DNA of 64,000 nucleotides from Mobula hypostoma (lineage: Eukaryota), in the NCBI RefSeq assembly GCF_963921235.1, contig NC_086097.1:162876001-162940000 (forward strand). Direction: 5' to 3'. This document shows, one piece after another, positions 4,668-61,889 of this stretch. Numbering within the stretch: the stretch's first letter is position 1; every line of letters begins with the position of its first letter. The notes under the pieces are model-generated. The model made no database searches, was not told the DNA's origin, and worked only from the letters and a program-made list of their open reading frames with translations. A program made the translations under genes and the position numbers.

Positions 4668-4669
4668 AT

Positions 4670-14319: not shown

Positions 14320-14465
14320 GACATGGGAGGCAACTGAAGCAGTCGGGGGAACCCACATTGTCACAGGGAAAATATACAAACTCCACACAGACAGGGCAGG
14401 AGGCTGAGATTGAATGTGGACCCTTGGAATGCTGTGACAGCAGCACTACCTGCTGCACCGCTGTG
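14320..14465 (-). mobile_element. V-SINE (HE1-like) fragment
   Basis: Minus strand reads tgtgtggagtttgtatattttccctgtgacaatgtgggtt (V-domain-like) after a tRNA-like head. Confidence 0.6.
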
Positions 14466-14499
14466 TTTATGTGGGGGCCATTGCAATAATCCATGAGGA

Positions 14500-19339: not shown

Positions 19340-21080
19340 AGAATGCAATACCCAGGTACTATTTCAGGTACAATCAGAAAACAATTCCAGCTGAGGTTAG
19401 AGATGGAATTGGATGCACATCAGCTCTGGCAGGCCATTACAAAAGCAAAATCTAACATCATGAATGACAACGTTGCTTCAATGCCTTTTATGCATGCTTT
19501 GAAAGGGAGAATAAATCTACGTCTATGTAAATCCCTGCAGTATCTGGTGACCCTGTGATCTCTGTCTCAGAGTCTAACATCAGAACATCTTTCAAGATGG
19601 TGAACCCTTGCAAGACGTCAAACTTTGATGGTGTACCTGGTAGGGATCTGAAAATCCACGCCAACCAACTGGGGGGAGTGTTTAAGGACATCTTCAATAA
19701 CTTGCTGCTGCAGTCAGAGATTCCCACCTGCTTCAAACGGGCAACAATCGTGCCCAAGAAGAGCAGGGTGAGCTGCCTCAACCACCATCACCAAGTGGCA
19801 CACATGTACTGTCATGCAGTGCTTTGAGAGGTTGGTCATGGCTAGAATGAACTCCAGCCTAAGCAAGGACCTGGACCCACTGCAAATTGCCTATCACCAC
19901 AGTAAGCCTACAGTGGATGCAATCTCACTAGCTCTCCACTTGGCCTTGGATCACCTGGACAATAGTAATACTTACATCAGACTGCTGTTTATTGACTACA
20001 GCTCAGCATTCAACATAATCATTATCATCAATTCTAATCAAAAAGTTCTAAACCTTGGGTCTCTGTACTTCCCTCTGCAACCAGACCTTTGACTTCCTTA
20101 CCGAGAGACCACAGTCTGCGCAGATAGAAAATAACGTTTCCTCGTTGCTGACGGTCAACATTGGCACACCTCAAGGATGTATGTTTAGCCCACTGCTCTA
20201 CTCTCTCTATACCCATGACTGTGTGGCTAGGCGCAGCTCAAACATCATCTATAAATTTGCAGATGACACAACTATTATTGGCAGAATTTCAGATGGTGAC
20301 GAGGAAGCTTACAGGAGTGAGATACATAAATCAGATGGTTGAGTGGTGTCGCAGCAAAGTCATTGCATTCAATGTCAGTAAAACCAAGGAAATAATTGTG
20401 GACTTCAGGAAGGGCAAGTCAAGGGAACACAGATCAGTCCTCATTGAGGGATTTGAAGTGGAAAGGGTGAGCAGTTTCAAGTTCCTGGGTGTCAGCATCT
20501 CCGAGAATCTAACCTGGGCTCAACATATTGATGCAATTACAAATAAGGCACAACAGGGGCTACATTTCATTACGAGTTTAAGGAGAATTGGTATGTCACC
20601 AAAGACACTCAAAAATTTCTACAGATGTATCATGCAGAGCATTCTAACTGGTTGCTCAGGATTGGAAATAAATGCAGAAAGTTGTACATTCAGCCAGCTC
20701 CATCATGGGCACTAGTCTCCCTAGCATCCAGGATAGTTTTGAAAGATGATGCCTCAAAAAGGCAGCATCCATCATTAAGGACCCTCATCACCCAGATCAT
20801 GCCCTCTTCTCACTTCTATCATCAAGGAGGAAATATAGGAGCCTGAAGACACACATTCAATGTTTTAGGAACAGCTTCTTCCCCTCCGCTATCAGATTTC
20901 TGAATGAACAATGAACCCGTGAACACTTCCTCAACATTTCCCTCTCTTTTTGCACTACTTATTGAATTTATATTTTTACATACATTGTTTTTACATTGTC
21001 ATTACTACGTGTTGCACTGTACTGCTGCTGCAAAACAACAAATCTCATGGCATGTGCCAGTGACATTAATCCTGATTCTG
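19340..21080 (+). mobile_element. 5'-truncated Rex1/Babar LINE (RT + 3' UTR)
   Basis: [62 protein letters not shown]; ends cctgattctga. Confidence 0.92.
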
Positions 21081-22009: not shown

Positions 22010-24470
22010 CAAAGTTCAGAGTTCAAAGTAAATTTATTATCAAAATACATATATGTCACCATATACATCCCTGAGATTCATTTTCTTGCAGGCATTCACA
22101 GTAAGTACAAGAAACAATAGAATCAATGAGATACCCAACCAATGTGCAGAAGACACTAAACTGTGGAAATACAAAAACAACAACAATAATAATAATAAAA
22201 AATAATAAATAAGCAATAGGTATTGAGATAATGGGTAAAGAGTCCTAGAAAGTGAGTCTATTGGTTGTGGAAACAGCTCAGTGATAGGGTGAGCGAAATT
22301 GTGTGAAGTTATACCCTCTGTTTCAAGAGCCTGATGGTTGAGAGATCATAACTGTTCCTAAACCTGGTGGTATGGGTCATGGGTCATGAGGCTCCTGTAA
22401 CTTCTTCCTGATGGCAGTAGTGAGAAGACGGCATAGCCTGGATAGTGGAGGTCCCTGATGATGGACGTTGCTTTCCAGCGACAACACTCCATGTAGATAT
22501 GGTCAATGGCAGGGAGGGCTTTACCCGTGATGGACTGGGCCCTATTCAATAACTTTTGTATGCTTTTCCATTAGAAGGCATTGGTGTTTCCATACCAGGC
22601 CATGATGACAGCAGTCAATATACTCTCCACCACACATCTATAGAAGTTTTAGACGACATGCCGAATTGTCACAAACTTCTAAGAAAGTAGAGGTGCTTTC
22701 TTCATAATGACACTTACGTGCTGAAACCAGGACAGTTCCATTGAAAAGAATGCACCAAGGAATCCGAAGTTGGTCATCCTCTCCACCTCTGATCCCCTGA
22801 AGGACTGGCTCGTGGATCACTGGTTTCCTCCTCCTGCAGTCAATAATCAGCTCCTTGGTCTCGCTGGCACTGAGTGAAAGATTGCCCTTGTGGCACCACT
22901 CAGCAGATTTTCAATCTCCCTCCTAAGTGCAGATTCATCACCACCTTTGATTCGGCTAATGACAGTGATATCTCAGCAAACTTAAACATGGCATTGGAGC
23001 TGTGCTTAGCCACACTCATGAGCTTAACGGTAGCAGAGCAGGGGACGAAGCACACAGCCTTGTGGTGCACCTGTGCTGATGGAGATTGTGGAAGTGATTT
23101 TGTTGCCAATCCAATCTGACTGGGTTCTGCAAATGAGAAAATTGAGGATCCAATTGCACAAGGAGGTATTGAGGCCAAGGTTATGATTAGTTTTGTGGGA
23201 ATGACAGTAATGAATGCTGAGCTATAGTCGATAAAGAGCATCCTGACGTACGCATCTTTGCTGTCCAGATATTCCACGATATTGAGTGAAGCGCCTATGA
23301 AAAGGCATTCGTTGTTGATCTGTTGTGACGGTACACAAATTGGAGTGGTTCCAAATCACTTCTTAAGCAGGAGTTAGACTATAAGACATAGGAGCAGAAT
23401 TAGGCCATTCAGCCTATTCAGTCTTCTCTGACAGTTGTTATGTTTCATCACCAACCTTACATCAGTGGATGTGAGTGCTAAAGATGATAGTCTTTGAGAC
23501 GGTTTACCATGTTCTTCCTAGGCAGCAGAATATTTGAAGCCTGCTTGAAGCAGGTGTGTACCTCAGACTGGTCAAGCAAGATTTTAATGATATCAGGGAA
23601 CACTCCAGATAATTGATCAGCAGAGGCCCTTTTGGTACTTGGCCAGGCACCCCGCCTGGACTGTACGCCTTCTGTGGGTTCACCCTCCTGAAGGGTGCTC
23701 TCACGTTGGCCTCAGACTCTGAAATCTCATAGTCATTGGGGAGTGTGGGTTTTCATGAAGGTGCCCCTATGTTTTGAAGGTCAAAGCGAGCATAGAAAGC
23801 ACTGAGTTCATCTGGGAGCGAAGTCACCTGCATTGCTTGGTTTCACTTTGCAGGAGGTGCTAGCATTGAAACCCTGCCGCAGCTGTCCAGCATCCTTCAG
23901 TGATTCAAGTTTAGTCTGGAATTGCCACTTCACCTGTGAGATGGCTTTCTGGAAGATCGTACCTGTTCCTCTTGTACTTTACTTGGTCACCAGACCTGAA
24001 TGCCACTGATCTGGCCTCCAGCAGATAGTCTACGTCATGGTTCATTCAGGGCGTCTGGCTGGGGAAGACTCTGAATGATTTTGTGGGGACACTCTCGTCT
24101 ACAACTGTTTTTATAAAATCCATGACAACCATGTTGTATTCGTTCATATTTTCTGATGAGTCCTTGAACATGGCCCACTCCACTGACTCAAAGCAATCCC
24201 AGTAGCTGCTCCTCCCTACCCATGACCACCTCTTTGTTGCCCTTATCTCTGGAGCCTTGCTCTTTAGTTTCTGCCTGTACACAGGCAAGTGGAGGAGAAC
24301 CAAGTGATCAGATTTCCCAAAATGCATTCTAGGCATGGAATGGTAGGCACTCCTAATCACAGTATAGCAATGGTTGAGCGTGTTGTGTCCCCTGGTGCTA
24401 CAGGTTACATGTTGATGATAACTGGGCAGCAATTTCTTCACACAAGCCTGGCTGAAGTCCCCCGACAATG
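22010..24470 (-). mobile_element. Degenerate Rex1/Babar LINE
   Basis: [12 protein letters not shown] (22900..23277); TRGHNTLNHCY and FGKSDHL (24046..24519); repeat tail at ~22010-22030. Confidence 0.88.
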
Positions 24471-24700
24471 ATGCAGCATGGTAACAGGCCCTTCTGGCCC
24501 TTAAACCGACACCACCCAATTACACCGATGTGACCAATTAATCTACGAAACTGTATGCCTTTAGCATGCAGGTGAAAACCTGAGCACCTGGAGGAAACCA
24601 TGGGAGAATATACAAATTCCTTACAGACAATGGCGGAATTGAACCAGTTTTTCTGGTGCTGTAATAGTGTTACGCTAACAGCTAAGCTACCATGCTGCCC
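24470..24700 (-). mobile_element. V-SINE (HE1-like)
   Basis: ctgagcacctggaggaaaccatgggagaatatacaaa is the reverse complement of a V-domain; CR1-like 3' end aacaggcccttctggccc. Confidence 0.65.
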
Positions 24701-27536: not shown

Positions 27537-27740
27537 AACGTAAACACGAGGAATTCTGCAGATAACAGGAATTCTGCAGATGCTGGAAATTCAAGCAACA
27601 CACATCAAAATTGCAGGTGAACACAGCAGGTCAGGCAGCATCTCTAGGAAGAGGTACAGTCGACATTTTGGGCCGAGACCCTTCATCAGGACCCAGATGC
27701 TGCCTGGCCTGCTGTGTTCACCAGCAACTTTAATGTGTGT
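27537..27740 (-). mobile_element. Minimal Penelope-like insertion with inverted arms
   Basis: 46-bp arms at 27598-27643 and 27695-27740 flank a decayed hammerhead motif; TSD AACTAAAAAAA (27526-27536, 27741-27751). Confidence 0.85.
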
Positions 27741-32530: not shown

Positions 32531-32794
32531 TGAACGGTCCTGCTACACAAGGAAAATTAATCTGTGCCTTACACTCTGATTCTGATTAAACAAAGTCTCT
32601 TCTGCCTGTACATAACCCATATCCCACCATTCCCTGTCCATTCTTGTGTCTCATTGACACCCAATGACCACCATTGTGTCTGTTTCCATCATGATCCCTG
32701 CCGCCCATTGCAGGTACCCACCGCGCTTGTTTAAAAAATTTAACCCTCACATCTCCGTTAAACTCACTCCTTAAACGCATGTCCTCTAGTATCT

Positions 32795-35700
32795 TAAACA
32801 CGAGGAATTCTGCAGATGCTGGAAATTCAAGCAACACACATCAAAGTTGCTGGTGAACGCAGCAGGCCAGGCAGCATCTCTAGGAAGAGGTACAGTCGAT
32901 GATTCGGGCCGAGACCCTTCGTCAGGACGAACTGAAGGAAGAGCTAATAAGAGATTTGAAAGAGAGAGGGGGAGATACAAAATGATAGGAGAAGACAGGA
33001 GGGGGAGGGATGGAGCCAAGAGCTGGACAGGTGATTGGCAAAAGGGATATGAGAGGATCATGGGACAGGAGGGCCACGGAGAAAGAAAAGGGGGAGGGGG
33101 GAAAAAAACTCAGAGGATGGGCACGGGGTATAGTCAAAGGGACAGAGGGAGAAAAAGGAGAGAGAGAGAGAAAGAATGTGTGTATATAAATAACGGATGG
33201 GGTACGTGGGGGAGGTGGGGCATTAGCAGAAGTTACAGAAGTCAATGTTCATGCCATCAGGTTGGAGGCTACCCAGATGGAATATAAGGTGTTGTTCCTC
33301 CAGCCTGAGTGTGGCTTCATCTTTACAGTAGAGGAGGCCGTGGATAGACATGTCAGAATGGGAATGGGACGTGGAATTAAAATGTGTGGCCACTGGGAGA
33401 TCCTGCTTTCTCTGGCAGACACAGCATAAGTGTTCAGCAAAACGATCTCCCAGTCTGCGTTGGGTCTCGCCAATATATAGAAGGCCACATCAGGAGCACT
33501 GGACTCAGTATATCACCCCAGCCGACTCACAGGTGAAGTGTCGTCTCACCTGGAAGGACTGTCTGGGGCCCTGAATGGTGGTAAGGGAGGGAGTGTAAGG
33601 GCATGTGTAGCCCTTGTTCCACTTACAAGGATAAGTGCCAGGAGGGAGATCAGTGGGGAGGGATGGGCGCGACGAATGGACAAGGGAGTCGCGTAGGGAG
33701 CTATCCCTGCGGAAGGCAGAGAGAGGGGGGGAGGGAAAGATGTGCTTCGTGGTGGGATCCCTTTGGAGGTGGCAGAAGTTACGGAGAATAATATATTGGA
33801 CCCGGAGGCTGGTGGGGTGGTAGTTGAGAACCAGGGGAACCCTATTCCTAGTGGGGTGGCGGGAGGATGGAGTGAGAGCAGAAGTGCGTGAAATGGGGTA
33901 GATGCGTTTGAGAGCAGAGTTGATGGTGGGGGAAGGGAAGCCCCTTTCTTTAAAAAAGGACATCTCCCTCATCCTGGAATGAAAAGCCTCATCCTGAGAG
34001 CAGATGCGGCGGAGACGGAGGAATTGCGAGAAGGGGATGGCATTTTTGCAAGAGACAGGGTGAGAAGAGGAATAGTCCAGATAGCTGTGAGAGTCAGTAG
34101 GTTTATAGTAGACATCAGTGGATAAGCTGTCTCCAGAGACAGAGACAGAAAGATCTAGAAAGGGGAGGGTGGTATCGGAAATGGACCAGGTAAACTTGAG
34201 GGCAGGGTGAAAGTTGGAGGCAAAGTTAATGAAGTCAATGAGCTCAGCATGCGTGCAGGAAGCAGCGCCAATGCAGTCATCAATGTAGCGAAGGAAAAGT
34301 GGGGGACAGATACCAGAATAGGTTTGGAACATAGATTGTTCCACAAAGCTAACAAAAAGACAGGCATAGCTAGGACCCATACGGGTGCCCATAGCTACAC
34401 CTTTAGTTTGGAGGAAGTGGGAGGAGCCAAAGGAGAAATTATTAAGAGTAAGGACTAATTCCGCTAGACGGAGCAGAGAGGTGGTAGAGGGGAACTGATT
34501 AGGTCTGGAATCCAAAAAGAAGCGGAGAGCTTTGAGGCCTTCCTGATGGCGGATGGAAGTATTTAGGGATTGGACATCCATGGTGAAAATAAAGCGGTGG
34601 GGGCCAGGGAACTTAAAATCATCGAGTTTAGGAGCGTGAGAAGTGTCACGAACATAGGTAGGAAGGGATTGAACAAGGGGGAATAAAACCGTGTCGAGGT
34701 ATGCAGAAACGAGTTTGGTGGGGCAGGAGCAAGCTGAGACAATAGGTCGGCCAAGACAGGCAGGTTTGTGGATCTTGGGTAGGAGGTAGAAACGGGAAGT
34801 GCGAGGTGTGGGAACTATAAGGTTGGTAACAGTGGATGGGAGATCCCCTGAGCGGATAAAGTCAGTGATGGTTTTGGAGACAATGGCCTGGTGCTCCTTA
34901 GTGGGGTCACGATCAAGGGGTAAATAAGAGGAGGTATCCGCGAGTTGTCGCTGTGCCTTGGCAAGGTAGCGGTCAGTATGCCAGACTACAACAGCCCCCC
35001 GCTTATCGGCCAGTTAATAGTAAGGTTAGGATTAGTGCGGAGAGAGTGGAGAGCAGAGCGTTCGGAAGGAGTAAGGTTGGAATGGGAACAAGGTGCGGTG
35101 AAGTCGAGACGGTTGATGTCCCGTCGGCAGTTAGCAATAAAGAGATCCAGAGCAGGCAGAAGACCAGAGTGGGGTGTCCATGAAGAGGAGGAGGGTTGAA
35201 GATGGGAGAAGTGGTCGTTGGTGGGGGTGGAAGGGACTCGCAATTCCTCCGTCTCTGCCGCATCTGCTCTCAGGATGAGGCTTTTCATTCCAGGACGAGG
35301 GAGAGGTCCTCCTTTTTTAAAGAAAGGGACTTCCCTTCCTCCATCATCAACTCTGCTCTCAAACGCATCTACCCCATTTCACGCACTTCTGCTCTCACTC
35401 CATCCTCCCGTCACCCCACTAGGAATAGGGTTCCCCTGGTTCTCAACTACCACCCCACCAGCCTCCGGGTCCAACATATTATTCACCGTAACTTCCGCCA
35501 CCTCCAATGGGATCCCACCACTAAGCACATCTTTCTCTCCCCCCCCATCTGCTTTCCGCAGGGATCGCTCCCTACGCGACTCCCTTGTCCATTCGTCGCG
35601 CCGATCCCTCCCCACTGATCTCCCTCCTGGCACTTATCCTTGTAAGCGGAACAAGTGCTACACATGCCCTTACACTTCCTCCCTTACCACCATTCAGGGC

Positions 35701-36440
35701 CCCAGACAGTCCTTCCAGGTGAGACAACACTTCACCTGTGAGTCGGCTGGGGTGATATACTGAGTCCGGTGCTCCTGATGTGGCCTTCTATATATTGGCG
35801 AGACTCAACGCAGACTGGGAGATCGTTTTGCTGAACACCTACGCTCTGTCTGCCAGAGAAAGCAGGATCTCCCAGTGGCCACACATTTTAATTCCACATC
35901 CCATTCCCATTCTGATATGTCTATCCACGGCCTCCTCTACTGTAAAGATGAAGCCACACTCAGGTTGGAGGAACAACACCTTATATTCCATCTGGGTAGC
36001 CTCCAACCTGATAGCATGAACATTGACTTCTCTAACTTCCGCTAATGCCCCACCTCCCCCTCGTACCCCATTCGTTATTTATTTATATACACACATTCTT
36101 TCTCTCTCTCCTTTTTCTTCCTCTGTCCCTCTGACTATACCCCTTGCCCATCCTCTGAGTTTCCCCCCCTCCCCCTTTTGCTTCTCCTTGGGCCTCCTGT
36201 CCCATGATCCGCTCATATCCCTTTTGCCAATCACCTGTCCAGCTCTTGGCTCCATCCCTGCCCCTCCTGTCTTCCCCTATCATTTTGGATCCCCCCCTCC
36301 CCCTCCCACTTTCAAATCTCTTACTAGCTCTTCCTTCAGTTAGTCCTGACGAAGGGTCTCGGCCTGAAACGTCGACTGTGTCTCTTCCTAGAGATGCTGC
36401 CTGGCCTGCTGCGTTCACCAGCAACTTTGATGTGTGTTGC
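32795..36440 (-). mobile_element. Penelope-like element: minus-strand RT/GIY-YIG body plus a 1.2-kb inverted copy of its 3' part
   Basis: ORF 33505..34581 has MDVQSL, QTKGVAMGTRMGPSYA and RYIDD; GVIY...LYIGET follows. The inversion junction is at ~35237. TSD TCTAGTATCT (32785-32794, 36441-36450). Confidence 0.93.
36341..36378 (+). ncRNA. Minimal type I hammerhead ribozyme motif, core intact
   Basis: UAGUC-CUGACGA-A-GGGU(CUCG)GCCU-GAAAC-GUC/GACUG. Stem I is UAGUC:GACUG, stem III is the palindrome ACGU. Predicted cut between 36373 and 36374. Confidence 0.8.
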
Positions 36441-36870
36441 TCTAGTATCTGACATTTCTACCTTGCAAAATAGTTTCTAGCTCTCTATTTTAACTATGCC
36501 TCTCATAATTTTCAAAACTTCCATCAGGCCTCCCTTCAGTCTCCGACGCTCCAGAGAAAGCAATCTAAGTTTGTGTAAGTTTTCCTTATAGTTCATACCC
36601 CCTAAAACATGCAGCATCTTGGTAAGCTACTTCTTCACCTATATCCTCCCTGTGAAGGAGCCACCAGAATTGAACGCAAAACTCCAAGTACCACCAAAGT
36701 GAAGTTTTGTATAATTGCAATGTGATTTCCTGACTCTCACACTCAAAGCCCTAACAAATGATGCAAGCATGCCATAGCTCTTCTTTACCAGTCTGTCGAT
36801 GTGTATTTTATCACCCTTTCTGCTGTCAGTAAGCTGCAGAAGCTTGGACCCTAAGATCCCTCTGTACATC
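36441..36870 (-). mobile_element. Old CR1 3' fragment, continued at ~32590-32794; host of the Penelope insertion
   Basis: IDRLVKKSYGMLASF remnant in 36639..36995. The two halves join through the TSD. Confidence 0.72.
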
Positions 36871-37714: not shown

Positions 37715-38220
37715 ATAGCAAAGGCATGGACATTGACTTCTCTAACCTGGTAATCACTCTCCTTTGTTGCCCCCCCCCCATTTTTTTCCCTTATCCTACC
37801 CTTCTTTTTCTCCTCCCCCACCATCTCGATCTGCATATCACCCACACATTCCATGGTGCATTGTCCTCTCCTATTCCATCTTCTTCAGCCCTTTCTCACT
37901 GCTGTCTATCACCTCCAAATGTATAGACCACTTCTACTCTCCCCCTTCCTTAAAAGTCATTCCTTTTCCATCACTCCTACTTTCCTCCTTCCTCAGCTGA
38001 CTCTCGCCCCCTCCCCTCACCTGCATCTGTCACCTGCCAGCTCTTCCTCCACCCCGCCCCCCACCCCGTTATGCAGGCTATCTCTCCCCTTTCTTTCCAA
38101 TGCCGATGAAGAGTCTCATCTTGAAATGTCGACTATTTCCCTCCACAGATGCTGCCTGACCTGCTGAATTCATCCAGCATTTTGTGTGTTGCTCCAGGTT
38201 TCCAGCATTTCCAGTCTCTA
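37715..38220 (+). mobile_element. Older Penelope-like 3' fragment
   Basis: ggcatggacattgacttctctaac (ORF end), a CT-rich tract, a decayed hammerhead at ~38100-38135 and the terminal repeat. Confidence 0.75.
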
Positions 38221-39032
38221 CTATTTTAAAAATCTACATATTCTGGAAATTTGAAGCACAGAACAGTAAATATTCAACATTTCGGACAGCAACTGTAGGA
38301 CAAAAATCAATATTAGCATTCCAACTTGTCATTGCATAATTGCTATTCTAGCTGAATGTGATTTTTCTTTTACATTTATTATGGTTCTGGTTTAATATTA
38401 CTGTTATATGTAGTGAGGTACAGTGAAAAACTTTGTTTTGCATGCCATCCATATAGATCACGAGGTAGAATGTGAGATCAAGAGTGCATCTTCTGGTTCT
38501 GGGGACCATTTAATAACCTAACAGTGGTTGACAAGCTGTCCTTGAGCCTGCTGATACACAAGTTCAGTTCCACATGATTTCACTTTGCACCTTCAAGTTG
38601 CTAAGAAAAGGAAGCAGCAATCAGAGGTCTCCTTCTGCATTGCCTCACTATGAACAATGACCTGACCTCTCCCCTCCCATCCTGCAGCTAAATTTTCATA
38701 ATATCACTGAAGGGGCGGGTACTATAGTTGAATAGGTCACTACCGTTCACTGAAGATGCTGACACAAGAAGGCTAGGCACTTGATAATCGTCATGTTGAC
38801 AAATATATTCCAGCTGCCAGGAAAGCGTGGCAATATATAAAGAAGATGGAAAAGGGAAAAATACTGTTCTGTTTCAAAGGCTAAACATTAGTAGCACCAT
38901 TGTGATTTAAAACGATTTATCGAAAATGCAACATTTACCATCACATTTTCACCTAGTTACATCAGAATTCAAATCAAGAACTGGTGAGTGGGTCCTATTA
39001 TCTAAACACTAAGCTATGAGGTACATAATTAT

Positions 39033-39183
39033 AAACGCAAACAACAGGAATTCTGCAGATGCTGGAAATTCAAGCAACATACATCAAAGTTGCTGGTGAA
39101 CGCAGCAGGCCAAGCAGCATCTATAGGAAGAGGCGCAGTCGACGTTTCAGGCCGAGACCCTTCGTCAGGACTAACTGAAGGAA
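39033..39183 (-). mobile_element. Short young Penelope-like terminal-repeat insertion
   Basis: Near-identical to 32800-32940. Flanks aggtacataattat and aggtacaatattat look like a diverged TSD. Confidence 0.85.
39136..39173 (-). ncRNA. Minimal hammerhead ribozyme motif, core intact, sense to the LAMA1 pre-mRNA
   Basis: Minus strand reads tagtcctgacgaagggtctcggcctgaaacgtcgactg, identical to 36341-36378. Confidence 0.8.
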
Positions 39184-41009
39184 GGTACAATATTATCGTC
39201 AGTTAAAGTACAGCAGCTCATGTTCTCAGGGTGTGTCAAGGTGCTTTCCAGCCAGTGGAATATTTGCGGAATGCATTCACTGGGGTTGAAGGACCGTGTT
39301 TGTGTACAGTGGGGGGGGGGGCGGGGGGAAGGAGGGGAAACAAGGCTTGTTTTGCTGCTCTCGTTTTGTTACTTGTTGTATTCAGTTTTGCTCTGTGTTG
39401 TTCATTGTGGGCACGCTATGTTGGCTCTGGATTGTGCGGCAACACTTACGGGCTACCCCAGCTAATGTTAGGTTGTGTTGGTTGTTAACGCAAATGACAT
39501 CATTTCACCCTATGTTTCAATGTACATCTCATAAGTAAATGAATTCCTAAATTACAGCATTCTAACTCTGAGGTAAGAGGACTACCATTAAACAAAGCCA
39601 CTATACTCAAGTACTTTTCCTTCTACACTATTTCATGCAGCCATTGGCTTCTCTTCAAATATAAAAATTCAATTTCAGTGACTCTGTCTTCCACTGGACT
39701 CTAGTGCCCTGTGTTTCTAGAACTGTTTTCCAGTAATGCATATTTAAAGGGCTCTCAGTTACTGGTAGCAAAGTATTTTCAACTTTAGTTCACTAAACCC
39801 TGTTTACTTTACAACGCACCTTACTTTGAAAATTCTTGCCAGCGGTGCTGCACTGAAAAAAAAAATGCAACTATAAATGTTACCTCCAAGTTGAGTTCAC
39901 TTATTTCCATAACAGGTTGAAAATTTGAGTACCAAGATACAAGATGGCATTAGCAAATCTCTTGTTGTGGTCTCCTTGAGCATTCAACAAGCTCAAGACC
40001 AAGGCTGCAGCGGTTCCACATTAACTGACTTCAGCAGTTGTGGTATCGGCTCCAGGTGAAAACTGCTGCCTTTGCCAGAAAGCCTCTGTCTCATTTAACA
40101 CCAAGAGAACTGACAACTCATGGCCAAGTCTATCTATAGGACTTACCACCTATTCTACAACAGCATTGTGAGAGTCCTCTCCAGAATAAATAATTATTTA
40201 TTGCAATTCCATCATCTTTACTTTGAAAGGATGCATGTTATTAATAATTGGACACTGACAACTACTCATAGAAATATTAATAAAAATATCAATTATTTCC
40301 AAATTTCATTAATCAGTGTTTTCTAAGTGTTAATAGCTGCTGTGTCAATACTTCACAGTATGTAGTTCGGCAGATAGTCATTGAAGAAAGGTTCGTTTAT
40401 GGCATTTCACCATTGCTAGACTAGTCATGAATCTTCCCATTCTAACACCTTTCTCATGTGTGACGTGGGCACCACTGGCAGAACTGGGAAGCAAGGTCAA
40501 TTCCAATTGCCCCTATACTGAGGAGGCTGTCACAAATCTGCAACATCCATGGGTCTGGACTCACACAAAGGACCGATGGGATGAAAATGGTAGATCAGCT
40601 CTCTAACCACTTACAAACACGCAGCAGTTTTACTGGTAATAATTGTTTATCCCAGATTTATTTAAATGACCCACTCTTCAAGGTTCAAAGTCAACTTCTT
40701 CCCCAGTGCTTCATATTTTTGAACAAACCTGTATGTTTTTTTAACCAAATTATATCTAATTTATATTAGTGTGAATTTATGCTAATTATATTATGCTAAT
40801 TTGTTTGCCATGTTTCTACTGTGCTGCTGCTGTCGCAAAAAGCTCATTTTCATGGCTTTTATACCCTGGCTATGCATGGTCATGCTGACTACTTAAACTT
40901 GAACTAAATGCACTTGAATTTAATAAACTGCAAGGTAGGCCTTGAACTTAAGACTCTCCGTGTCTGTCCAGTGAAATAAGCATTAGACTATCCAGAACAC
41001 TATGCCAGC

Positions 41010-42409: not shown

Positions 42410-42680
42410 TACCCCCCCCCACCCGGTTTCACCTATCACCTTGTGTTTCTCACCCCCCTCCCCCACCTTTTAATCTACTCCTCACCGTTTTTCCCTCCAG
42501 TCTTGCCGGAGGGTCCCGGCCCAAAATGTCAACTGTACTTTTTTTCTACAGCTGCTGCCCGGCCTGCTGAGGTCCTCCAGCATTTTGGGTGTGTTGCTGA
42601 AGGAACTCAGTAGGTTGAGCAGCATCTGCGGGGGAAAGGAACTGTCAACATTTTGGGTTGAGGCCCTGCATCAGGAAGAC
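42410..42680. repeat. Two opposed degenerate Penelope-like terminal repeats
   Basis: A plus copy runs to ~42598 and is followed directly by a minus copy to ~42677. Both have decayed hammerhead motifs. Confidence 0.7.
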
Positions 42681-44439: not shown

Positions 44440-44733
44440 GTTGTTCAGCAAATCTGCACTAACCATCACTTTTATTCTCCCCACATTCTTGCCAGATTCT
44501 ACCACTCACCTAGACACTAGAGGAAATTTACAGTGGCCAATCATACATCTTTGGGATGTGGGAGGAACCAGGAACAGCCAGGGAAAACCCACAAGAAAAT
44601 GCAACATCATCACAGACAGCACCGGAGGTCGGCTTTGAACCCAGGTCTCTGAAGCTGTGAGGCAGCAGTTCTGTTAGTTGTGCCACCTCTTCAAAGAAGC
44701 CAAGTTGGCACAGCTAACAGAACCGCTGCCTCA
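44440..44733 (-). mobile_element. V-SINE with an inverted duplication of its 5' end
   Basis: ttgggatgtgggaggaaccaggaacagccagggaaaaccca (V-domain, reverse); arms at 44658-44685 and 44706-44733. Confidence 0.7.
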
Positions 44734-44899
44734 TAGAGTGATTTTCATGTCCTGCTATGGACACATAAAGAGACAAACTATCGTTAATTGACACTTCTCA
44801 GCTTGAACTGGAACTAAGCAGTTCCACAAAACAGGCATCACTGCCTGGCAGCAACCGTATAGTTGGTGCCGTACAAATGAATAGAGCCACAGTACGAAC

Positions 44900-46238: not shown

Positions 46239-46432
46239 ATATGCATTCAGTTTCCACCAGCACATGCTTACGTTCACACTGATCACAGAGACGACCCGTA
46301 ACACCCAATTTGCAAATGCAATAGCCCAGGAGAGAATCACAGTTATTATGGATGGAACCACTTGGATTACATTCACATTTATGACACTTCCCATCTGAAG
46401 CACGTGGGTTACCATAGTGACCAGGAGCACAT
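46239..46432 (-). CDS. LAMA1: LAMA1 exon, 194 nt: CAPGHYGNPRASDGKCHKCECNPSGS...CERKHVLVETECI
   Basis: Acceptor gtctccag, donor gtaagt; lies within ORF 46201..46503; phase 2 to 1. Confidence 0.94.
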
Positions 46433-46818
46433 CTGGAGACATGGAGGGATAAGTAATTATTGAGGAAAACACAGGTATTTAATACCACTTTTCTGATTTC
46501 CAAAGTATTTTTCAGAGTTTACAAAACTTGGTAGCAGAACACCCACATATTAAAATGAGTGTATTGATGTAACCAAGACTTACCTTAGTTCCTTAATTGA
46601 ACGTAATTCTGAATGAATTTACATTTTGCATGAACATCATAAAACCAAATGTGCTGACTAGGTTCAGATCTTCTCATTAAATAATATTGCTTGTTGCTGC
46701 ACACTGATTAATACAAGCCATTTTCATCTTAAAATTGTACAGTTGATTTATACTCTTGATAAACCTGTCACCCCACAACTAAACAAGCTCCAAGCTGCAC
46801 AGTAACAGTAAAACCAAC

Positions 46819-48031: not shown

Positions 48032-48875
48032 AAACACAACAGACTCTGCAGATGCTGGAACACACCCAAAATGCTGGAGGCAGTGCCTTTGGAGGGGAAT
48101 AAACCGTCGGTGTTTTGGGCTGATACCATTCATCAGGACTGGAAAGGAAGGACAGCAGAAGCCAGAATAGGAAGGCAGAGGGAGGGGAAGGAGTACAAGC
48201 TAGCAGGTGACAAGTGAGAATAGGTGAGGGGAAAGGGTGACGGGTGGGGAGGGGGGATGAAGTAAGAAGCTGGGAGGTGGTAGGTTCAAGAGCCAAAGAA
48301 ATAAAGGGAAGTCAAATTGAAATGGGTGAGGTGGTGAGGTGACACTTCACCTGCAAATCTGTGGGGGTTATCTATTGTAGCTGGTGCTCTTGATCCAGCC
48401 TCCTCTACATTGGTGAGACCCGGCACAGGTTGGGGGACCACTCTATCAAGCACCTGCGCTTGGACTGCCACAAATAGCAAGATTTTCTGGTGGCCCCCAT
48501 TTCAATTCAGCTTCCCATTTCCATTCTGACATGTCTGCCCATGGCCTCCTCTACTGCCTCCCTCCAGTTCCCCTCCTTCCCTTTCTTCCTTGGTCTACAG
48601 TCCTCTCCTGTCAGATTCGTTATTCTTCAGCAATTTGTCTCTTCCGCCAATCCTGTCCCAGTTTCTTACCTCAAGATACTCCCTCACCACCCACCTTCCC
48701 CCTCACCTGGGTCTCACCTATCACCAGCCAGCTTACATTCCTTCTCTTTCCCCACCTTTCATCTGCCCCCTTCCTTTCCAGTCCTAAAGAGGGGTATCGG
48801 CCCTAAACATTGATTGTTTATTCACCACCATTGATGCTGCCTGACTTGCTGAGTTCCTCCAGCATTTTGTGTGGG
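48032..48875. mobile_element. Penelope-like insertion with inverted arms and a GIY-YIG remnant
   Basis: Minus terminal repeat at 48032-48300; plus HFTCKSVGVIYC...LYIGET remnant at ~48340-48420; terminal repeat to 48875; 14-bp TSD TATCACAGTGTTGT (48018-48031, 48876-48889). Confidence 0.88.
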
Positions 48876-48977
48876 TATCACAGTGTTGTGGGAGAAACAC
48901 TGTGGAAATTACTTTCCTTTTGCTCAGGAAAGGAAGTCAACCTCTGCAGCTTGCATTTGCCTGTAATCATACTTTAC

Positions 48978-51124: not shown

Positions 51125-51414
51125 GATCTGGGTTTTTCCCCCCCTCGCCCTTTTCCTTCTCCCTGGGCCTCCTGTCCCATGATCCTCTCATATCCCTTTT
51201 GCCAATCATCTGTCCAGCCCTTGGCTCCATCCCTCCCCCTCCTGTCTTCTCCTATCATTTTGGATCTCCCCCTCCCCTCCCACTTTCAAATCTCTTACTA
51301 GCTCTTCCTTCCATTAGCCCTGACGAAGGGTCTCAGCCCGAAACGTCGACTGTACCTCTTCCTAGAGATGCTGCCTGGCCTGCTGCGTTCACCAGCAAAT
51401 TTGATGTGTGTTGC
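51125..51414 (+). mobile_element. Penelope-like terminal repeat with hammerhead core (51315-51352)
   Basis: Closely matches 36150-36440; tagcc-ctgacga-agggtctcagccc-gaaacgtc-gactg. Confidence 0.87.
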
Positions 51415-53072
51415 TAGTATCTATCCTGCCTGTCATTTCCTCAGAATTCCAACAGATTTGACCGACAAGATTTTCGCTTAAAGAAACCATGCTGACTCGT
51501 GTGGCGCCTTGTATTCCTAAAAATCTAAATCTAAGCAGTATTTATCCAGCCTGTTATTTCCTCATAGAATTCCAAGAGATTTGTCAGGGAAGATTTTCCT
51601 GTAAAGAAACCATGCTGACTTTGGCCCATTTCCTCATGTGCTTCTATGTACAGCAAAACCTCATCTTTAATAATGGACTCCAACAACTTCCCAATCACTT
51701 AAGTCAGGCTAACTGCCCATAATTTTCTTTCTCCTGCCTCACTCCCTCCTAAGGAGTGGAGTGACATTTTCAATTTTCCAGTTCTCTGGAACTATTCCAG
51801 AATCTATTGATTCTTCAAAGATTATTACTAATGTATTCACAATCTCTTCAGCTATCTCTTTCAGAACCTTGGGGTGTAGTCCATCTGGTCCAGGTGACCT
51901 ACCTACCTTCAGACCTTTCAGCTTCTCTAGCACCTTCTCCTTAGTAGTAGCAAGTCCACTCATTTCTACCCCTTGACACTCGAATTTCTTGCACACTGCT
52001 AGTGTCTTCCATAGTGAAGACTAATGCAAAAGTCTTATCAAGTTTGTCCACCGTTTCTTATTACCCATTATCTCTCCAGTGTAATTTTCCAGTGGCCTGA
52101 CAGCTACTCTCACTTCTCTTTTACTCGTAATATGTTTGAAAAAAAAAACTTCTGACAGTCTCTTTCCTATTACTGGCTAGCTTCCCTTCATATTTTTTTT
52201 TCTCTCCTTATGGCACTTTAAGTTGCCTTCTGTAAGTTTCCCAATCCTCTATCTTCCCACTATTTTTGAGTACATTGTGTGCCCTCTTTTTTTGCTTCTC
52301 ACTAATTTTGACTACATTGTGTGCCCTCTTTTTTTGCCTTTATGCTGACTTTGACCATAAGACCATAAAATTAGGCCATTTGGCCCATTGAGTCTGCTCT
52401 GCCATTTCATCAAGGCTTATCCATTTCCCTCTCAACCTCATTCTCCTGGCTTCACTCCATAACTTTTCACACCCTGACTAATCAAAAACCTATCAACTTC
52501 TGCCTTAAATATAACCAATTACCCGGCCTCCACAGCCACATGTGGCAAAGAAATCTAGATTCACTACCCTCCGGCCAACGTAAATTCTCTTTATCTACTC
52601 ATCTTTGCCTTCCCTTGTCAGCTACAGTTGCCTCATCCTCTCCTTAGAATACTTCCTCATCTCTGGGATGTAATCTATCCTGTACTTTCTAAATAGTCCC
52701 CAGAAACTCCAGACATTGTTGTTCACCTGTCATTCTTGCTAGTGTTTCCTTCCAATCAACTTTGGTCAGCTCTTCTCACATGCCTCTGTAATTCCTTTTT
52801 GCTCTACTATGATATTGATACACCCGGCTTTAGCTTCTCTCTCTCAAACTGTAGGGTGAAATCTTTCACATTGTGATCACTACCTCCCAAAGGTTCCTTT
52901 ACCTTAAGCTCCCTAATCAAATCTGGTTCATCACGCAACACCCAATCCAGTGTTGCCTTTCCCCAAGCAGGCTCAACCACAAGATACTCTAAAAATTCAT
53001 CTCCCTCTTTTGGGATCCAGCACCTACCTGATTTTCCCAATCTACCTTTTCTACCTTCCGTTGTAATTAGTA

Positions 53073-54145
53073 CAGGTGTCCCCCGCTTTTCGAACGTTCG
53101 CTTTTCAAAACCTCACTGTTACAAAAGACCTACATTAGTTCCCTGTTTTCGCTAACAGAAAGTGTTTTCACTGTTACAAAGAAAGGCAGCACACGATAAA
53201 AGGCCGCGCGCGCCCCGAGCAGCCGCTCTCCCCCGGATTCGGAACTGCATTCTCGCCGGCATTGCTTAAACACGTGCCTGTGAGCAGCCGTTTGCAAGAT
53301 GAGCTCTAAAGTATCGGAAAAGCCTAAAAGAGCTCGTAAGGGTGTTACACTTAGCGTATAACTAGACATAATTAAGTGTTTCAATCGTGGAGAACGAAAT
53401 AAGGACAAAGTGAGTTTGCCTAGTGGAAGCTGACGAAGATGATGTTGAAGAGGTTTTGGCATCCCATGACCAAGAACTGATAGATTCACCTCTGATCCGG
53501 GCTGACATTTACGTGCTGGGCGGCACCTAATTAATTAGCATGTTTATTTCGGCTTTTTCTTAAAGATATGCCGTGTGCCTCCCAGCTACCGCTGCACCAC
53601 TGCATGCTTCACGGATCAGTATCAGTCGGCGGCCCGGAGGGTGGGGACACTGCACCACCCAAACTCCGATGACTCAGTCTAACACACCATCATCAGTGTG
53701 CTCGGTAAGCTGTCTTCCTGATTCCCATAAGTGATACTACACTGTACATACATTATTTCTACTTTATATAGGCTGTGTATTTTTATGCGTTATTTGGTAT
53801 GATTTGGCAGCTTCATAGCTTAAAGGTTACTGGAGAGTGTTTTTGCCAACAGCGCTTGCGTGAGATTTTCGCTACGGAGAACAGTGCCGGCAATGATTGT
53901 GGAAAAGTATTTCTACTTTATACAGGCTGTGCATTTATCATATCATTCCTTCTTTTACTATATGTTACTGTTAATTTAGGTTTTATGTGTTATTTGGCAT
54001 GATTTGGTAGGTTATTTTTGGGTCTGCAAATGCTCACAAAATTATCCCATATAAATAAATGGTAATTGCTTCTTTGCTTTACGACATTCCGGCTTACGAA
54101 CCGTTTCATAGGAATGCTCTACCTTCGGATGGCGGGGGAAACCTG
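53073..54145 (+). mobile_element. Second Tigger/pogo derivative, same family as 10258-11800, with a further deletion
   Basis: TA-CAGGTGTCCCCCGC...GCGGGGGAAACCTG-TA; colinear with the first copy. Confidence 0.9.
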
Positions 54146-56389
54146 TATTCCACATCCTTCCTACTATTTGGAAGTCTGTATATAAATAACTCCCTTCAGG
54201 GTCTTTTTACCCTTGCAATTTCTTAACTTTAGCCACAAGGATTCTATGTCTTCCGAATCCATGTCATCTCTAAGGATTTAATTTCCTTGTTTACCACCAG
54301 AGCCACCCCACTTCCTCTGCCTACCTGCCTGTTCTTTCAATATAACGTGTATCCTTGGATGTTATAATCCCAACTATGATCTTCTTTCATCCACAATTTG
54401 CTGATGCACACAACGACGTACCTTCTAATTTGTAACTGCGCTATAATATCATCTACCTTATCTTGTATACTATGGCCATTCAAGTATATCACCTTCAGTC
54501 TTGTATCCATTACCCTTTGTGATTTTGCTCATATGTTGCATTTCAACTCATCACACTGACTGAAATTTTAGTCAGGCCTTCATCACAGTTTCACTACACA
54601 CTTAACCTACTTGTTTACCAACTGCCCCATCCTCAGCCCTATTACTCCAGTTCCCATCCCCCTGCCAGTTTGATTTAAACCCTCCCTAACTGCTCTAGCA
54701 AACCTGCCCACAAGGTTATTGATCCCCTTCAGGTTCAGGTGTAACCCATCCTTTTTCTATAGTTCATAACTCTCCCAGAAGAGATCCCAATGATCCAGAA
54801 ATCTGAAATCCTGCCCACTGCACCAATTCCTCAGCCATCCACTCACTTGCCCAATCATTCTATTATTACCCTCACTGGCATGTTACACAGGCAGCAATTC
54901 AGAGATTACTACCTTGGAGGCCCTGCTTTTCAGCTTTCTACCCAAATCACTATATTCTCTATTCAGGAGCTCCTCCCAATTCCTACTTATGTAGTTGGTA
55001 CTAGTATGCACCACAACTTCTGGCTTCAACTTCTCCTGATGGACCTGATCTGAGAGATCCCTGACCCTGGCACCTGGGAGGCAAATTACCATCCGGGTTT
55101 CTTTTTCATATCCACAAAATCTCCTCTCTGCTCCTCTAAGTGTGGAATCCCCTATCAGTACTATACTGCTCTTCGCACTCCCTCTCTTCTGAGCCACAGA
55201 GCCAGACTCAATGTCAGAGACTTGCTCACTGTGGCTTCTCCCTGGTAGGTTGCTACCTCATCCCCCATCTTCCCCCCACCCCTCAACAGTATCCAAAGAG
55301 GTACACCCATTCCCCTGCGAAATGAGTAAAGCTGCAGCTCGATGCACTTCGTGTAGATGTAGTTATCAGGGTGATTGGAGGTGTCCCAAAGTTCCTACAT
55401 CTCATACAAAAAACCTACCACTAGCTTTGGACCCATTCTCAATGCACTAGCTATGTAGTAGTAGACAAAGAAAGAGAAATAAATAAAGAAAAAACTTAAT
55501 AGAAACTTAATTGGAACCTTTGCCTGCGCTTGCCTAATCTTGTCGCGCCAAAGCCTCCCACTCTAACATTTGCCCACTCACACCCATCTTCTTTTTATTG
55601 GCTCAAATAAAACTCACTCCTGACGAGACTTGTTCTTTTCAAATGGCTCCAGCCTTGCAACAATCTCTCTCTCTCTCTCCCTCCGCCCCCTCCCCTCCAC
55701 TCACTACTTCAAATCATGACAGTGATGTGATGTAAGATCATTGGGGAGAGACTTTGATGGCCTGGTGCCAGAAGCTTGGTGGGTGTGAGGAGAAAGGGAG
55801 AAACCTGGCGTGATGCAGTGATGGATAGTTCAGTGCAGGTCTGGGGAGGTCAACAGAAATATATCAAAGGACTGAAGTGATAGATGGTTGGGAAGAAAGA
55901 CATCAGGGCTTGACAAGACGAATCATCAGAAGTTGAGTGAGCTATAAAGTGAAGGGGAATCTATTTGCAGTGCCTGGGGTAGGGGACACAAGAAGTGCAA
56001 AATTATGGAAGGGGCCTATCTGATTTAGCTTCCAGTTTGGCCTTGTATTAGGAAGACTAGATTGTTATGGAAGTGTCTAAAGACAGTCACTTCATGATGA
56101 ATACAGTTCCTGTATCCTTTAATGCTCCAATTTCTGGGCACTGAGGCATTTTGTCAAAACAGAGGTCTCCTATCCAATGACTCATTAGGAAGGGTGTAAT
56201 GTCGTTTGCTATGGCAAACAAAATTGAACTTGGATTTGATATTTCTTATGATGGCACCCTCTGGCCATTCCCATTGCCTAGGCTCCCAAATGGCTATTGG
56301 AGAATGGGACCAGGGTCCTTCCCTCTGTGTAATTCAGAAATGCGGACAAATATCCTGGTCAGTAATACCTGGAATAGACGCAAGGGAGT

Positions 56390-56565
56390 GCAGATGCAAA
56401 AAAACAAGGTGCTGGAGTAACTCTTTGGGGTCAGGCAGCACCTATGGAGGGAAATAAACACTTGATGGTTCATGGAGCCCTCATGAAGAATCTCGTCCTG
56501 AAACATCGACTGTTCGTTTCCTTCCACAGATGCTGTCTGATTTAATAAGGTCTGGAATATTGTGT
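56390..56565. repeat. Degenerate inverted Penelope-like terminal repeat pair
   Basis: gtcaggcagcacctatggagggaaataaaca ... tgttcgtttccttccacagatgctgtctga around tcatgaagaatctcgtcctgaaacatcgact. Confidence 0.6.
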
Positions 56566-61149: not shown

Positions 61150-61830
61150 TTTGTTTACATGATATTGGGTTTTGCTTTGTAGGATGTCTTGCTAACTCTG
61201 CCAGAATTGACATCCAACCTCTCCCGGAATTGTTTCTTGGGTCTTGAAATAGCCCTTCGCAAGTCATACCTGGTTTTCTTATACAGACCTGGATCACCAG
61301 ACTTAAATGCCACAGACCTAACCCTCAGCAGACTATGAACCTCCTGGTATATCCACAGCTTTTGGTTTGGGAATGTACAGTAAGTCATCCCCACAGGATT
61401 CAATAAAGTTCATGACAAGTGTGGCATACTTATTCAGGCTCGAAGATGACTCCCTGAACACAGTCCAGTCCATTGATTCAAAGCAGTCCTATAAGTGCTC
61501 CTGCCTCCCTGGTCCACCCCTTCTTGGTCCTCACTACTGGTGCTGCAGTCTTCAGTCTCCTCTCATACTCAGGGAGTAGAAGTACAGCCAGGTGATCAGA
61601 CTTACCAAAGGCTGGGCATCTAATGGCACGGTAGGCACTCTTGAACTTAGTGTAACAGCGGTCCAGTGTGTTATTTCCTCTGGCACTACAGGTGATTCGT
61701 TGATAATAATTAATTAGTGACTTTATCAAGCTGGCCTGGTTAAAATCCCCTAAAATGATGGGGAAGTCGTCAGGATGTGCTGTTTCATGCCTCCTGAAGG
61801 ACACAGCTGGATGCACACTAAGTGTTCCTT
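61150..61830 (-). mobile_element. Rex1/Babar endonuclease-region fragment
   Basis: HPDDFPIILGDFNQA...ARGNNTLDRCY...FGKSDHL (61478..61855). Confidence 0.85.
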
Positions 61831-61889
61831 CATAGTCTTCTGCTGCTGTAACCAATCCACTTCAAGGTTTGATGTGTAGTGCATTCTGA

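What the first reader, a model, noticed from the sequence alone, without database searches (positions are those of the whole stretch)
36341..36378. Minimal hammerhead ribozyme in the terminal repeat of a Penelope-like family, dispersed through the LAMA1 introns
Seen: the motif stem I-CUGACGA-A-stem II(GGGU/GCCY)-GAAA-CG-UC-stem I'. The core is intact at 36341 (+), 39136 (-) and 51315 (+). It is decayed at about 27657, 32893, 38100, 42500, 42645, 48105, 48780 and 56480. Known: Penelope-like elements carry minimal hammerheads whose palindromic stem III is thought to require dimerisation. Inference: this lineage has a very high density of ribozyme-bearing repeats (about 10 in 64 kb), often without the ORF, so they behave like retrozyme- or SINE-type units. 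I do not know whether this family has been described.
Basis: partly seen in the sequence, partly recalled or inferred. Interest (0 to 1): 0.7.

Follow-up and report, generated by a model that had tools for sequence, protein, structure and literature searches.

The report
Shark/ray Penelope retrotransposon's minimal hammerhead
The motif is a real minimal hammerhead (predicted self-cutting RNA) in the end repeat of a very abundant Penelope-type jumping gene, a pairing already known from other animals; the short gene-less copies are likely dead-end by-products of that element, and many begin just in front of the motif rather than at its predicted cut site.

Summary
In detail: all 11 listed copies exist (17 family hits in the window), and the host gene is LAMA1. 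The 36341 copy is not a stand-alone unit. It ends the + arm of one 3.65-kb head-to-head insertion (32795-36441, 11-bp target duplication) of a Neptune-type Penelope-like element (RT plus GIY-YIG). The intact 34-mer occurs 45,139 times genome-wide (control 0); the window's density (266/Mb) is ordinary for the genome (230/Mb). Related elements from marine metagenomes keep the core and a palindromic stem III with different stem sequences, which supports function in the lineage. Minimal hammerheads in such repeats are published (2014). The retrozyme/SINE inference is not supported: no hammerhead tandem arrays were found, long copies are raggedly truncated, and short copies share variants with long ones. 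One feature is worth following: copies start preferentially 3-4 bases before the core (about 15-18% at each of the two positions, against about 1% at the cut site), likely an RNA end. This scan noted the family and this start bias before, in this and other genomes. Cleavage is untested; the monomer is predicted to fold inactive. New member of a known kind.

The parts
36341..36378 (+). Minimal type I hammerhead motif (C3 at 36346; stem I 36341-45/36374-78; stem II 36354-57/36362-65 closed by G.U at pair 10.1-11.1; palindrome ACGT 36369-72; predicted cut 36373/74)
32795..36441 (.). One head-to-head (inverted) Penelope-like insertion; the two arms meet at about 35233-35237
32784..32794 (+). Left copy of the 11-bp target-site duplication
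36440..36450 (+). Right copy of the 11-bp target-site duplication (first two bases shared with the element end)
32795..35233 (-). Long arm: 5'-truncated copy with RT, linker, broken GIY-YIG, pLTR, decayed hammerhead (C3 at 32925) and the extra ~33-nt tail; 92% identical to a full-length copy
33505..35013 (-). 502-aa open stretch: reverse transcriptase to the start of the endonuclease, ended by a premature stop
35237..36441 (+). Short arm: end of the ORF (stop at 36043-45), 300-nt pyrimidine-rich 3' region, intact hammerhead, ends at +95 without the tail
36300..36343 (+). Polypyrimidine tract ending in CAG and TAG just before stem I; resembles a 3' splice site and an initiator (consensus recalled, untested); its 3' part is predicted to pair with the hammerhead core
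   Evidence: fold
39031..39184 (-). Young stub (99% to a full-length copy) with intact hammerhead 39136-39173 and tail; same sense as LAMA1
51133..51415 (+). 5'-truncated pLTR copy; core intact at 51320, one stem I mismatch
27537..27740 (.). Short head-to-head insertion with an 11-bp target duplication; decayed hammerhead, C3 at 27689 (-)
48033..48876 (.). Older head-to-head insertion with an endonuclease remnant; decayed hammerheads at about 48136 (-) and 48784 (+); 14-bp flanking duplication read from the sequence
38103..38214 (+). Older decayed copy
42499..42676 (.). Two older decayed copies facing each other (42503 +, about 42675 -)
56403..56565 (.). Older short head-to-head pair; decayed core at 56480 (+)
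46240..46434 (-). Laminin EGF exon of the host gene LAMA1 (other exons near 46800, 49000, 57400, 60000)

Best explanation
The motif is the minimal hammerhead of a Neptune-type Penelope-like retrotransposon's terminal repeat, copied passively into tens of thousands of truncated insertions, and it likely cuts only in the parent element's RNA (as a pair or with the element's protein), not in dispersed copies such as this one. Shown: full-length copies read pLTR(hammerhead)-1016-aa RT/GIY-YIG ORF-pLTR(hammerhead) with a 3.5-kb period; copies end at two 3' positions, about +95 and +128 from the core; head-to-head pairs carry one target duplication and usually the tail on one arm only. Inferred, by analogy with the anole element: the protein nicks both target strands and starts reverse transcription inside the RNA at those two sites, downstream of the ribozyme. 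Any copy that contains the core was therefore copied from RNA that was uncut at that site (uncleaved, or cut and religated into a circle). Inferred: the RT often stops 3-4 bases before the core, likely at an RNA 5' end, which gives the 95-130-bp stubs and the short fold-backs. The 36341 copy lies antisense to LAMA1, has no same-strand partner with an intact core nearer than 15 kb, and is predicted to fold into an inactive rod, so it is most likely inert.
For: Architecture: 8 of 20 loci picked for long open frames have a full upstream hammerhead block directly before the ORF; Pfam RVT_1 and GIY-YIG; CX4CxxC linker; nearest named protein from a bamboo shark, 72% identical. 3' ends of 40 young copies: 21 at +86..+102 and 17 at +122..+134. 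Target duplications of 8-16 bp in 9 of 15 head-to-head pairs, at most 7 bp in 14 shifted controls. The two window arms share 13 private changes absent from 45 other long copies, including two stops in the endonuclease: one defective donor moved in trans, or later conversion. Functional constraint across lineages: in 80 metagenome loci of related RTs a hammerhead descriptor hits the sense strand 21 times, the antisense 3 times and shuffles 0-1 times; across 14 families stem I and II pairs take 2-5 different forms, and the stem III segment, whose symmetry was not demanded, is palindromic in 14 of 14. Starts: normalised genome-wide counts are about 1,450 (-8), 4,200 (-4), 5,050 (-3), 1,470 (-2), 260 (+12) and 1,100 (+28, the cut site). 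Of 30 loci starting at -3, 15 are solo, 13 with a candidate duplication of 5 bp or more; of 30 at +28, 21 are inverted joints (mostly on short homologies), 5 deletions or duplications and 4 solo. Literature: PMC4209133, PMC11167929, PMC8557442.
Against: No cleavage or RNA data were obtained. Within this genome the stems barely covary, so constraint is shown only across distant lineages, and stem pairing there was required by the descriptor. The youngest subfamily has G.U instead of the conserved G-C at 10.1-11.1 (24 of 38 young copies have T), and 9 of 48 older copies have C at A6; both may mean weak or lost activity. The predicted two-strand minimum-energy fold is an extended duplex, not a double hammerhead. 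The start shares rest on small denominators (8-27 matches per Mb) and assume random flanks, although half of the -3 loci are inverted joints; part of the -4 count is -3 starts followed by a chance A.
Confidence: 0.8

Rival explanations
1. The short copies are a self-propagating retrozyme or SINE-like family: stubs are transcribed from an internal promoter and re-copied by the element's protein.
For: Thousands of stubs have a preferred first base and their own target duplications. They retain both inferred RT start sites. Drosophila Penelope has an internal promoter (PMC2377424, passages). Pieces of pLTRs give rise to retrozymes in frogs (bioRxiv 2026.07.22.740005).
Against: No tandem arrays with the motif (0 of 32). 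Stubs share haplotypes with long copies across several subfamilies; only one haplotype with more than one copy (3 copies) was seen in stubs alone. Two alternative 3' ends and frequent fold-backs match by-products of insertion. No tRNA-like head was seen in the stubs I read.
Confidence: 0.1
2. The pile-up of 5' ends at -3/-4 is an RT pause or a splice-related stop, not a transcription start: the RT stalls at the foot of stem I, in the loop of the upstream hairpin, or at a spliced junction (YAG ends at -3).
For: A pyrimidine tract and YAG precede stem I in young and old subfamilies. In D. virilis the intron's 3' end maps to the 5' end of helix I (PMC4209133). A predicted upstream hairpin has its loop at -3..0. 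No excess of G before -4 starts, as cap copying might leave (about 35 of 100 listed, counted by eye, 42 expected).
Against: No shared upstream exon sequence appears in -3 copies; target duplications abut the start directly in many solos. Extra bases before -3 often repeat the element's own +3..+9, as expected from run-off and re-priming. Old subfamilies with different upstream sequence also show starts at -3/-4.
Confidence: 0.35
3. The hammerhead is a vestige in this lineage: it no longer cleaves and persists only because it overlaps signals for RT initiation, promoter or splicing.
For: G.U at 10.1-11.1 in the youngest masters; N7 = C lets GACG pair with CGUC and lock the core (open form probability 0.0006); almost no copies start at the cut site. 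In the anole element, cleavage was not needed for insertion in vitro and no RNA ends were seen at the site (PMC11167929).
Against: The core, GAAA and the CG palindrome are the majority state in both young and old groups, and the motif is kept with different stems across related animal elements. The anole ribozyme cleaved once protein was added.
Confidence: 0.25

Closest known systems
Minimal hammerheads (min-HHR) in pLTRs of metazoan Penelope-like elements (Cervera and De la Pena 2014, PMC4209133)
   Same: Type I, short stem I, extra base between 9 and 10.1, palindromic 15.2-16.2 and no real helix III, located in pLTRs, mostly dispersed single copies; reported there for fish Neptune, Poseidon and Xena elements.
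   Different: Cartilaginous fishes are not named in the parts I read. Copy number is higher (45,139 exact intact 34-mers; about 97,000 intact cores extrapolated from 28 per Mb) than their 4,000 (coelacanth) and 9,000 (Xenopus). The youngest subfamily has G.U at 10.1-11.1.
Neptune-clade EN+ Penelope-like elements (description in Craig et al. 2021, PMC8557442)
   Same: Single ORF with RT, Zn-finger-like linker and C-terminal GIY-YIG; partial tandems; inverted 5'-truncated copies; 30-40-bp tail at one end.
   Different: The linker is shared with Nematis and I built no tree with named references, so the clade rests on the motif. A preferred 5' stop at the hammerhead is not mentioned in the passages read.
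Poseidon element of Anolis carolinensis, PAc (Frangieh et al. 2024, PMC11167929)
   Same: Two internal RT start sites that bound the tail; both target strands extended; uncleaved RNA as the dominant template.
   Different: In PAc the ORF starts inside stem II; here the conserved Met is about 166 nt downstream of C3. Different clade. Nothing was tested biochemically here.
Non-LTR retrozymes of animals (Cervera and De la Pena 2020, PMC7229834; Li et al. bioRxiv 2026.07.22.740005)
   Same: ORF-less, type I hammerhead, related to PLE pLTRs; one chondrichthyan is reported to have retrozymes and PLEs.
   Different: Retrozymes are tandem repeats of 150-450-bp units, mostly with canonical hammerheads, expressed as circles; these copies are single or head-to-head and minimal.
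Drosophila virilis Penelope (Schostak et al. 2008, PMC2377424)
   Same: Partial tandem flanked by inverted repeats, a 34-37-bp tail, copies without pLTR pairs flanked by target duplications, splice-acceptor-like sequence at helix I.
   Different: Its transcription start lies 46 bp before a 75-bp intron, well upstream of the ribozyme; no intron or start site is demonstrated here.

Membership tests
PLE minimal type I hammerhead | CUGANGA and GAAA..UH core with stems I and II | tested here: met
PLE minimal type I hammerhead | Palindromic, near-absent helix III | tested here: met
   ACGU; self-duplex -3.1 kcal/mol; palindromic in 14 of 14 families
PLE minimal type I hammerhead | Extra nucleotide between 9 and 10.1 | tested here: met
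   A at 36353
PLE minimal type I hammerhead | Conserved G10.1-C11.1 pair | tested here: inconclusive
   G.U in the focal copy and in 24 of 38 young copies; C is the majority in older copies, 28 of 48
PLE minimal type I hammerhead | Self-cleavage as dimer or with protein | not testable with these tools
   Monomer predicted inactive
EN+ Penelope-like element | Single ORF with RT and C-terminal GIY-YIG | tested here: met
   1016-aa ORF in a full-length copy; Pfam RVT_1 E 3.6e-5 (below its cut-off), GIY-YIG E 8e-5 (above its cut-off); broken in the window copy
EN+ Penelope-like element | pLTRs in partial tandem or inverted, tail on one end | tested here: met
Neptune clade | CX2-5CxxC linker between RT and EN | tested here: met
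   CKRNKCYTC in alignment A1; also a Nematis feature per PMC8557442
Neptune clade | RT phylogeny with named Neptune references | not tested
   No named references among the hits
Non-LTR retrozyme | Tandem repeats with a hammerhead in each unit | tested here: not met
   0 of 32 arrays in 1.06 Mb; rare arrays elsewhere in the genome are not excluded
Non-LTR retrozyme | Expression as small circular RNA | not testable with these tools
   Needs raw RNA reads
SINE-like non-autonomous family | Own lineage with diagnostic mutations | tested here: not met
   Haplotypes shared with long copies (20 short, 48 long, a small sample)
SINE-like non-autonomous family | Defined 5' end and own target duplications | tested here: inconclusive
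   Peak at -3/-4 with duplications, but starts spread on both sides

The most novel reading that the evidence does not exclude
In this lineage the element makes an RNA whose 5' end is the foot of hammerhead stem I. Removing the upstream pyrimidine tract is what lets stems I and II form, so RNA start (or splicing) gates the ribozyme. The RT starts 95 or 128 nt inside this RNA on both cut target strands and runs off its end. The roughly 800,000 genomic fragments would then be a fossil map of the Penelope RNA's 5' end and show that the template is uncut.
Probability: 0.4. Interest if true: 0.55.

Novelty: new member of a known kind. Interest (0 to 1): 0.27.

Why it matters
As a class the finding is known. 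Its value is as material: one of the densest hammerhead-bearing Penelope expansions I could compare (about 230 fragments per Mb; 149,746 first-look candidates for the RT, many with long open frames), in a lineage not named in the hammerhead papers I read. What PLE hammerheads do is still open. The sharp start 3-4 bases before the core and the near absence of starts at the cut site give a cheap test of whether the ribozyme defines the RNA end, and say that the copied RNA is uncut. Nothing points to an effect on LAMA1.

Tried and rejected
Rfam scan: no hammerhead family hit; I take this as a limit of the models for helix-III-less motifs. Folding z-scores for five copies were not significant (-0.2 to -1.4). 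Two-strand folding did not return a double hammerhead. Sequencing runs: no RNA holder listed; eight runs laid, all contigs, which show no starts, strand or level; no GT..AG joint to the acceptor-like site was among the joints shown (248 not shown); loose ends at -5..-3 appear in 5 of the 8 runs but can come from older subfamilies with other upstream sequence, so I do not count them. An apparent cluster of 5' ends 540-610 nt upstream (7 of 40) is not one nucleotide; rejected as a start site. Genomic trace of cleavage at +28: rejected. Cap-derived extra G: not seen at -4; G is common before -3 but is often explained by the target duplication or by re-priming. A MAFFT alignment of 12 motifs misaligned the stems and one reference was mis-addressed, so it was not used; pairs were tabulated by anchor instead. 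The LAMA1 check by exon search was limited to proteins under 2,000 aa and gave alpha-4; the ESM Atlas gave only generic laminin EGF; the PDB test settled it. LAMA1-specific enrichment and strand bias (9 plus, 8 minus) rejected. Lunse et al. 2017 was not held; I know it only through PMC6765202. Dfam and Repbase are not available, so whether the family already has a name is open.

Full report
Numbering. Positions are given relative to C3 of the hammerhead core (0; window 36346 for the focal copy). The predicted cut lies between +27 and +28.

Observation. The motif is present as described, and the same 38-mer lies at 39136-39173 on the minus strand. The 51315 copy has an intact core and a mismatch in stem I. 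The eight decayed sites are all family members. A profile trained on 72 copies from elsewhere in the genome finds 17 hits in the window and none in 5 shuffles. The host gene lies on the minus strand: laminin EGF exons in the window, and three downstream exons whose best laminin match in the PDB is alpha-1 (E 1e-27, 5e-40, 3e-15; alpha-2 is weaker or absent; for one exon a multi-domain neurexin chain ranked first on summed score). So the focal copy is antisense to LAMA1; the intact 39136 copy is sense.

What the focal copy belongs to. Window 35237-36441 (+) and 32830-34030 (-) are 93.6% identical inverted arms. The minus arm continues to 35233 and holds a 502-aa RT frame. One 11-bp duplication flanks the whole 32795-36441 block, so it is a single insertion. 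The minus arm ends at +128, the plus arm at +95. The arms share 13 private changes not found in 45 other long copies, against 18 and 38 private to one arm; two of the shared ones are stops in the endonuclease (2 of 30 copies examined carry them, both being these arms). Either one defective donor templated both arms and was moved in trans, or the arms were homogenised later.

The family. The RT stretch gave 149,746 first-look candidates in the 3.48-Gb genome; 85 were scored, at 92-93% identity for other copies. I fetched 20 of these, chosen for long open frames: 8 have a full hammerhead block directly upstream of the ORF and another 3.5 kb downstream; inverted and partial-tandem arrangements are common. 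The ORF is 1016 aa with RT, a CX4CxxC linker and GIY-YIG. The nearest named relative is a Chiloscyllium punctatum protein at 72%, which points to a cartilaginous fish host. These are the features given for Neptune/Nematis-type elements in PMC8557442 (passages).

Abundance. An intact 34-mer matches 45,139 times; the reversed control 0. In 100 evenly spaced 10-kb stretches (1 Mb) there are 28 intact cores with the CG palindrome, 158 BLAST hits to the hammerhead block and 221 profile hits in the 96 stretches scanned (the profile was trained on this sample). The window is average. The core and palindrome are intact in 23 of 38 young and 5 of 48 older copies; most changes fall on CpG sites, as expected for neutral decay after insertion.

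Is it a functional ribozyme motif? Within the genome the stems hardly vary, so covariation cannot be shown. Across 80 metagenome loci encoding related RTs, a hammerhead descriptor hits 21 times on the element's strand, 3 times on the other and 0-1 times in 5 shuffles. I took one motif per family (13, plus the window's; duplicates and three doubtful hits dropped). Each stem position shows 2-5 pair types; the descriptor demanded pairing, but not the palindrome, which is present in 14 of 14. This matches the min-HHR of PMC4209133 (parts 1-2 of 4 read), where monomers did not cleave and dimers cleaved weakly. Against strong activity here: the youngest subfamily has G.U at 10.1-11.1; the monomer's predicted fold pairs core GACG with CGUC (-11.0 kcal/mol; open form -7.0, probability 0.0006); and 13 or more upstream bases capture the core in another hairpin, lowering stems I and II to 0.2 or less (0.01 with 30 bases, on a full-length copy).

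Retrozyme or SINE? Of 40 young copies in the sample, 23 have no ORF sequence, 17 reach into it and 1 spans it. Longer copies are raggedly truncated. No tandem array contains the motif (0 of 32). Divergent pairs under 100 bp apart are common: 21 of 50 divergent pairs, against 3 of 27 convergent and 3 of 47 same-strand. Short copies share haplotypes with long ones. 3' ends cluster at two sites about 33 nt apart, as for the two internal RT starts shown in vitro for the anole element, which also extends both target strands and uses uncleaved RNA (PMC11167929, parts 1-2 of 4 read). The ORF-less copies are best read as insertion by-products. Retrozymes as defined in PMC7229834 (passages) and bioRxiv 2026.07.22.740005 (parts 1-3 of 5; supplements not seen) are tandem units.

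Where copies begin. 16 of the 40 young copies start between -17 and +11. After earlier notes of this scan pointed to the same bias, I counted genome-wide matches with three non-matching bases before a chosen start: 284 (-8), 834 (-4), 892 (-3), 412 (-2), 114 (+12) and 486 (+28). Corrected for flank probability and for how often each 32-mer survives, the shares are about 4, 15, 18, 5, 0.6 and 1.2%. The denominators are small (8-27 per Mb), flanks of inverted joints are not random, and part of -4 is -3 plus a chance A, so these are rough; the order is the robust part. Of the first 30 loci at -3, 15 are solo stubs, 13 with a candidate duplication of 5-16 bp; of the first 30 at +28, 26 are inverted joints, deletions or duplications. 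An RNA end at the foot of stem I is the simplest reading; an RT pause or a splice-related stop (YAG ends at -3; compare D. virilis in PMC4209133 and PMC2377424, passages) is not excluded. The splice-site and initiator consensus sequences are recalled, not from a call.

Literature and prior notes. Six searches found no paper describing hammerheads in shark or ray Penelope elements; the one paper holding 'Penelope', 'shark' and 'hammerhead ribozyme' uses 'shark' as a simile. The 2026 preprint includes one unnamed chondrichthyan with retrozymes and PLEs. PMC6765202 and PMC6155905 were read as passages. Dfam, Repbase and most subscription journals were not searchable. This scan has 67 findings with these words in at least 23 genomes and several on this family in this genome; they are AI notes and add no independent support.

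Verdict. Real, correctly located, and a new member of a known kind. The SINE/retrozyme inference is not supported. The start bias is the one lead of mechanistic interest, already noted elsewhere in the scan. Interest 0.27.

Noticed in passing
window 32795-36441: Both arms of the inverted insertion share 13 private changes, including two endonuclease stops: likely one defective RNA copied twice and moved in trans.
   Followed up: partly
window 42503; L096:598, L116:7712, L140:9536, L060:8807: An older subfamily has C at core position A6 (CUGCYGA) in 9 of 48 older copies; effect on cleavage unknown.
   Followed up: no
window 36365 and most young copies: A CpG-type C-to-T change appears fixed in the youngest masters, turning the conserved G10.1-C11.1 pair into G.U.
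   Followed up: partly
L295, L312, L314 (G000 C1): Extra bases before -3 starts often repeat the element's own +3..+9 sequence, suggesting RT run-off and re-priming at the second GUC.
   Followed up: partly
window 1965-5644 (-): A long, fairly intact APE-type LINE (endonuclease 3378-4694, RT 2348-3352, upstream ORF pieces), CR1-like by recall; a diverged piece lies near 54650-55250.
   Followed up: no
window 14166-16762, 19484-20931, 22389-24519, 61213-61861: Fragments of another LINE family with the ALKBH8_N-like C-terminal motif (Pfam hit at 20152-20715).
   Followed up: no
window 44650-44741: A near-perfect ~85-bp hairpin that draws weak microRNA-family hits far below their cut-offs; not part of the Penelope family by my searches.
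   Followed up: no
window 10256-11803 and 53071-54148: Two 87%-identical copies of an unclassified ~1.1-1.5-kb repeat with an internal inversion.
   Followed up: no
L182, L186, L188, L233, L244, L254 and other metagenome loci: Penelope-like elements in marine metagenome contigs carry minimal hammerheads with CG, GC, AT, CGCG, AATT, AGCT or CTATAG palindromes.
   Followed up: partly
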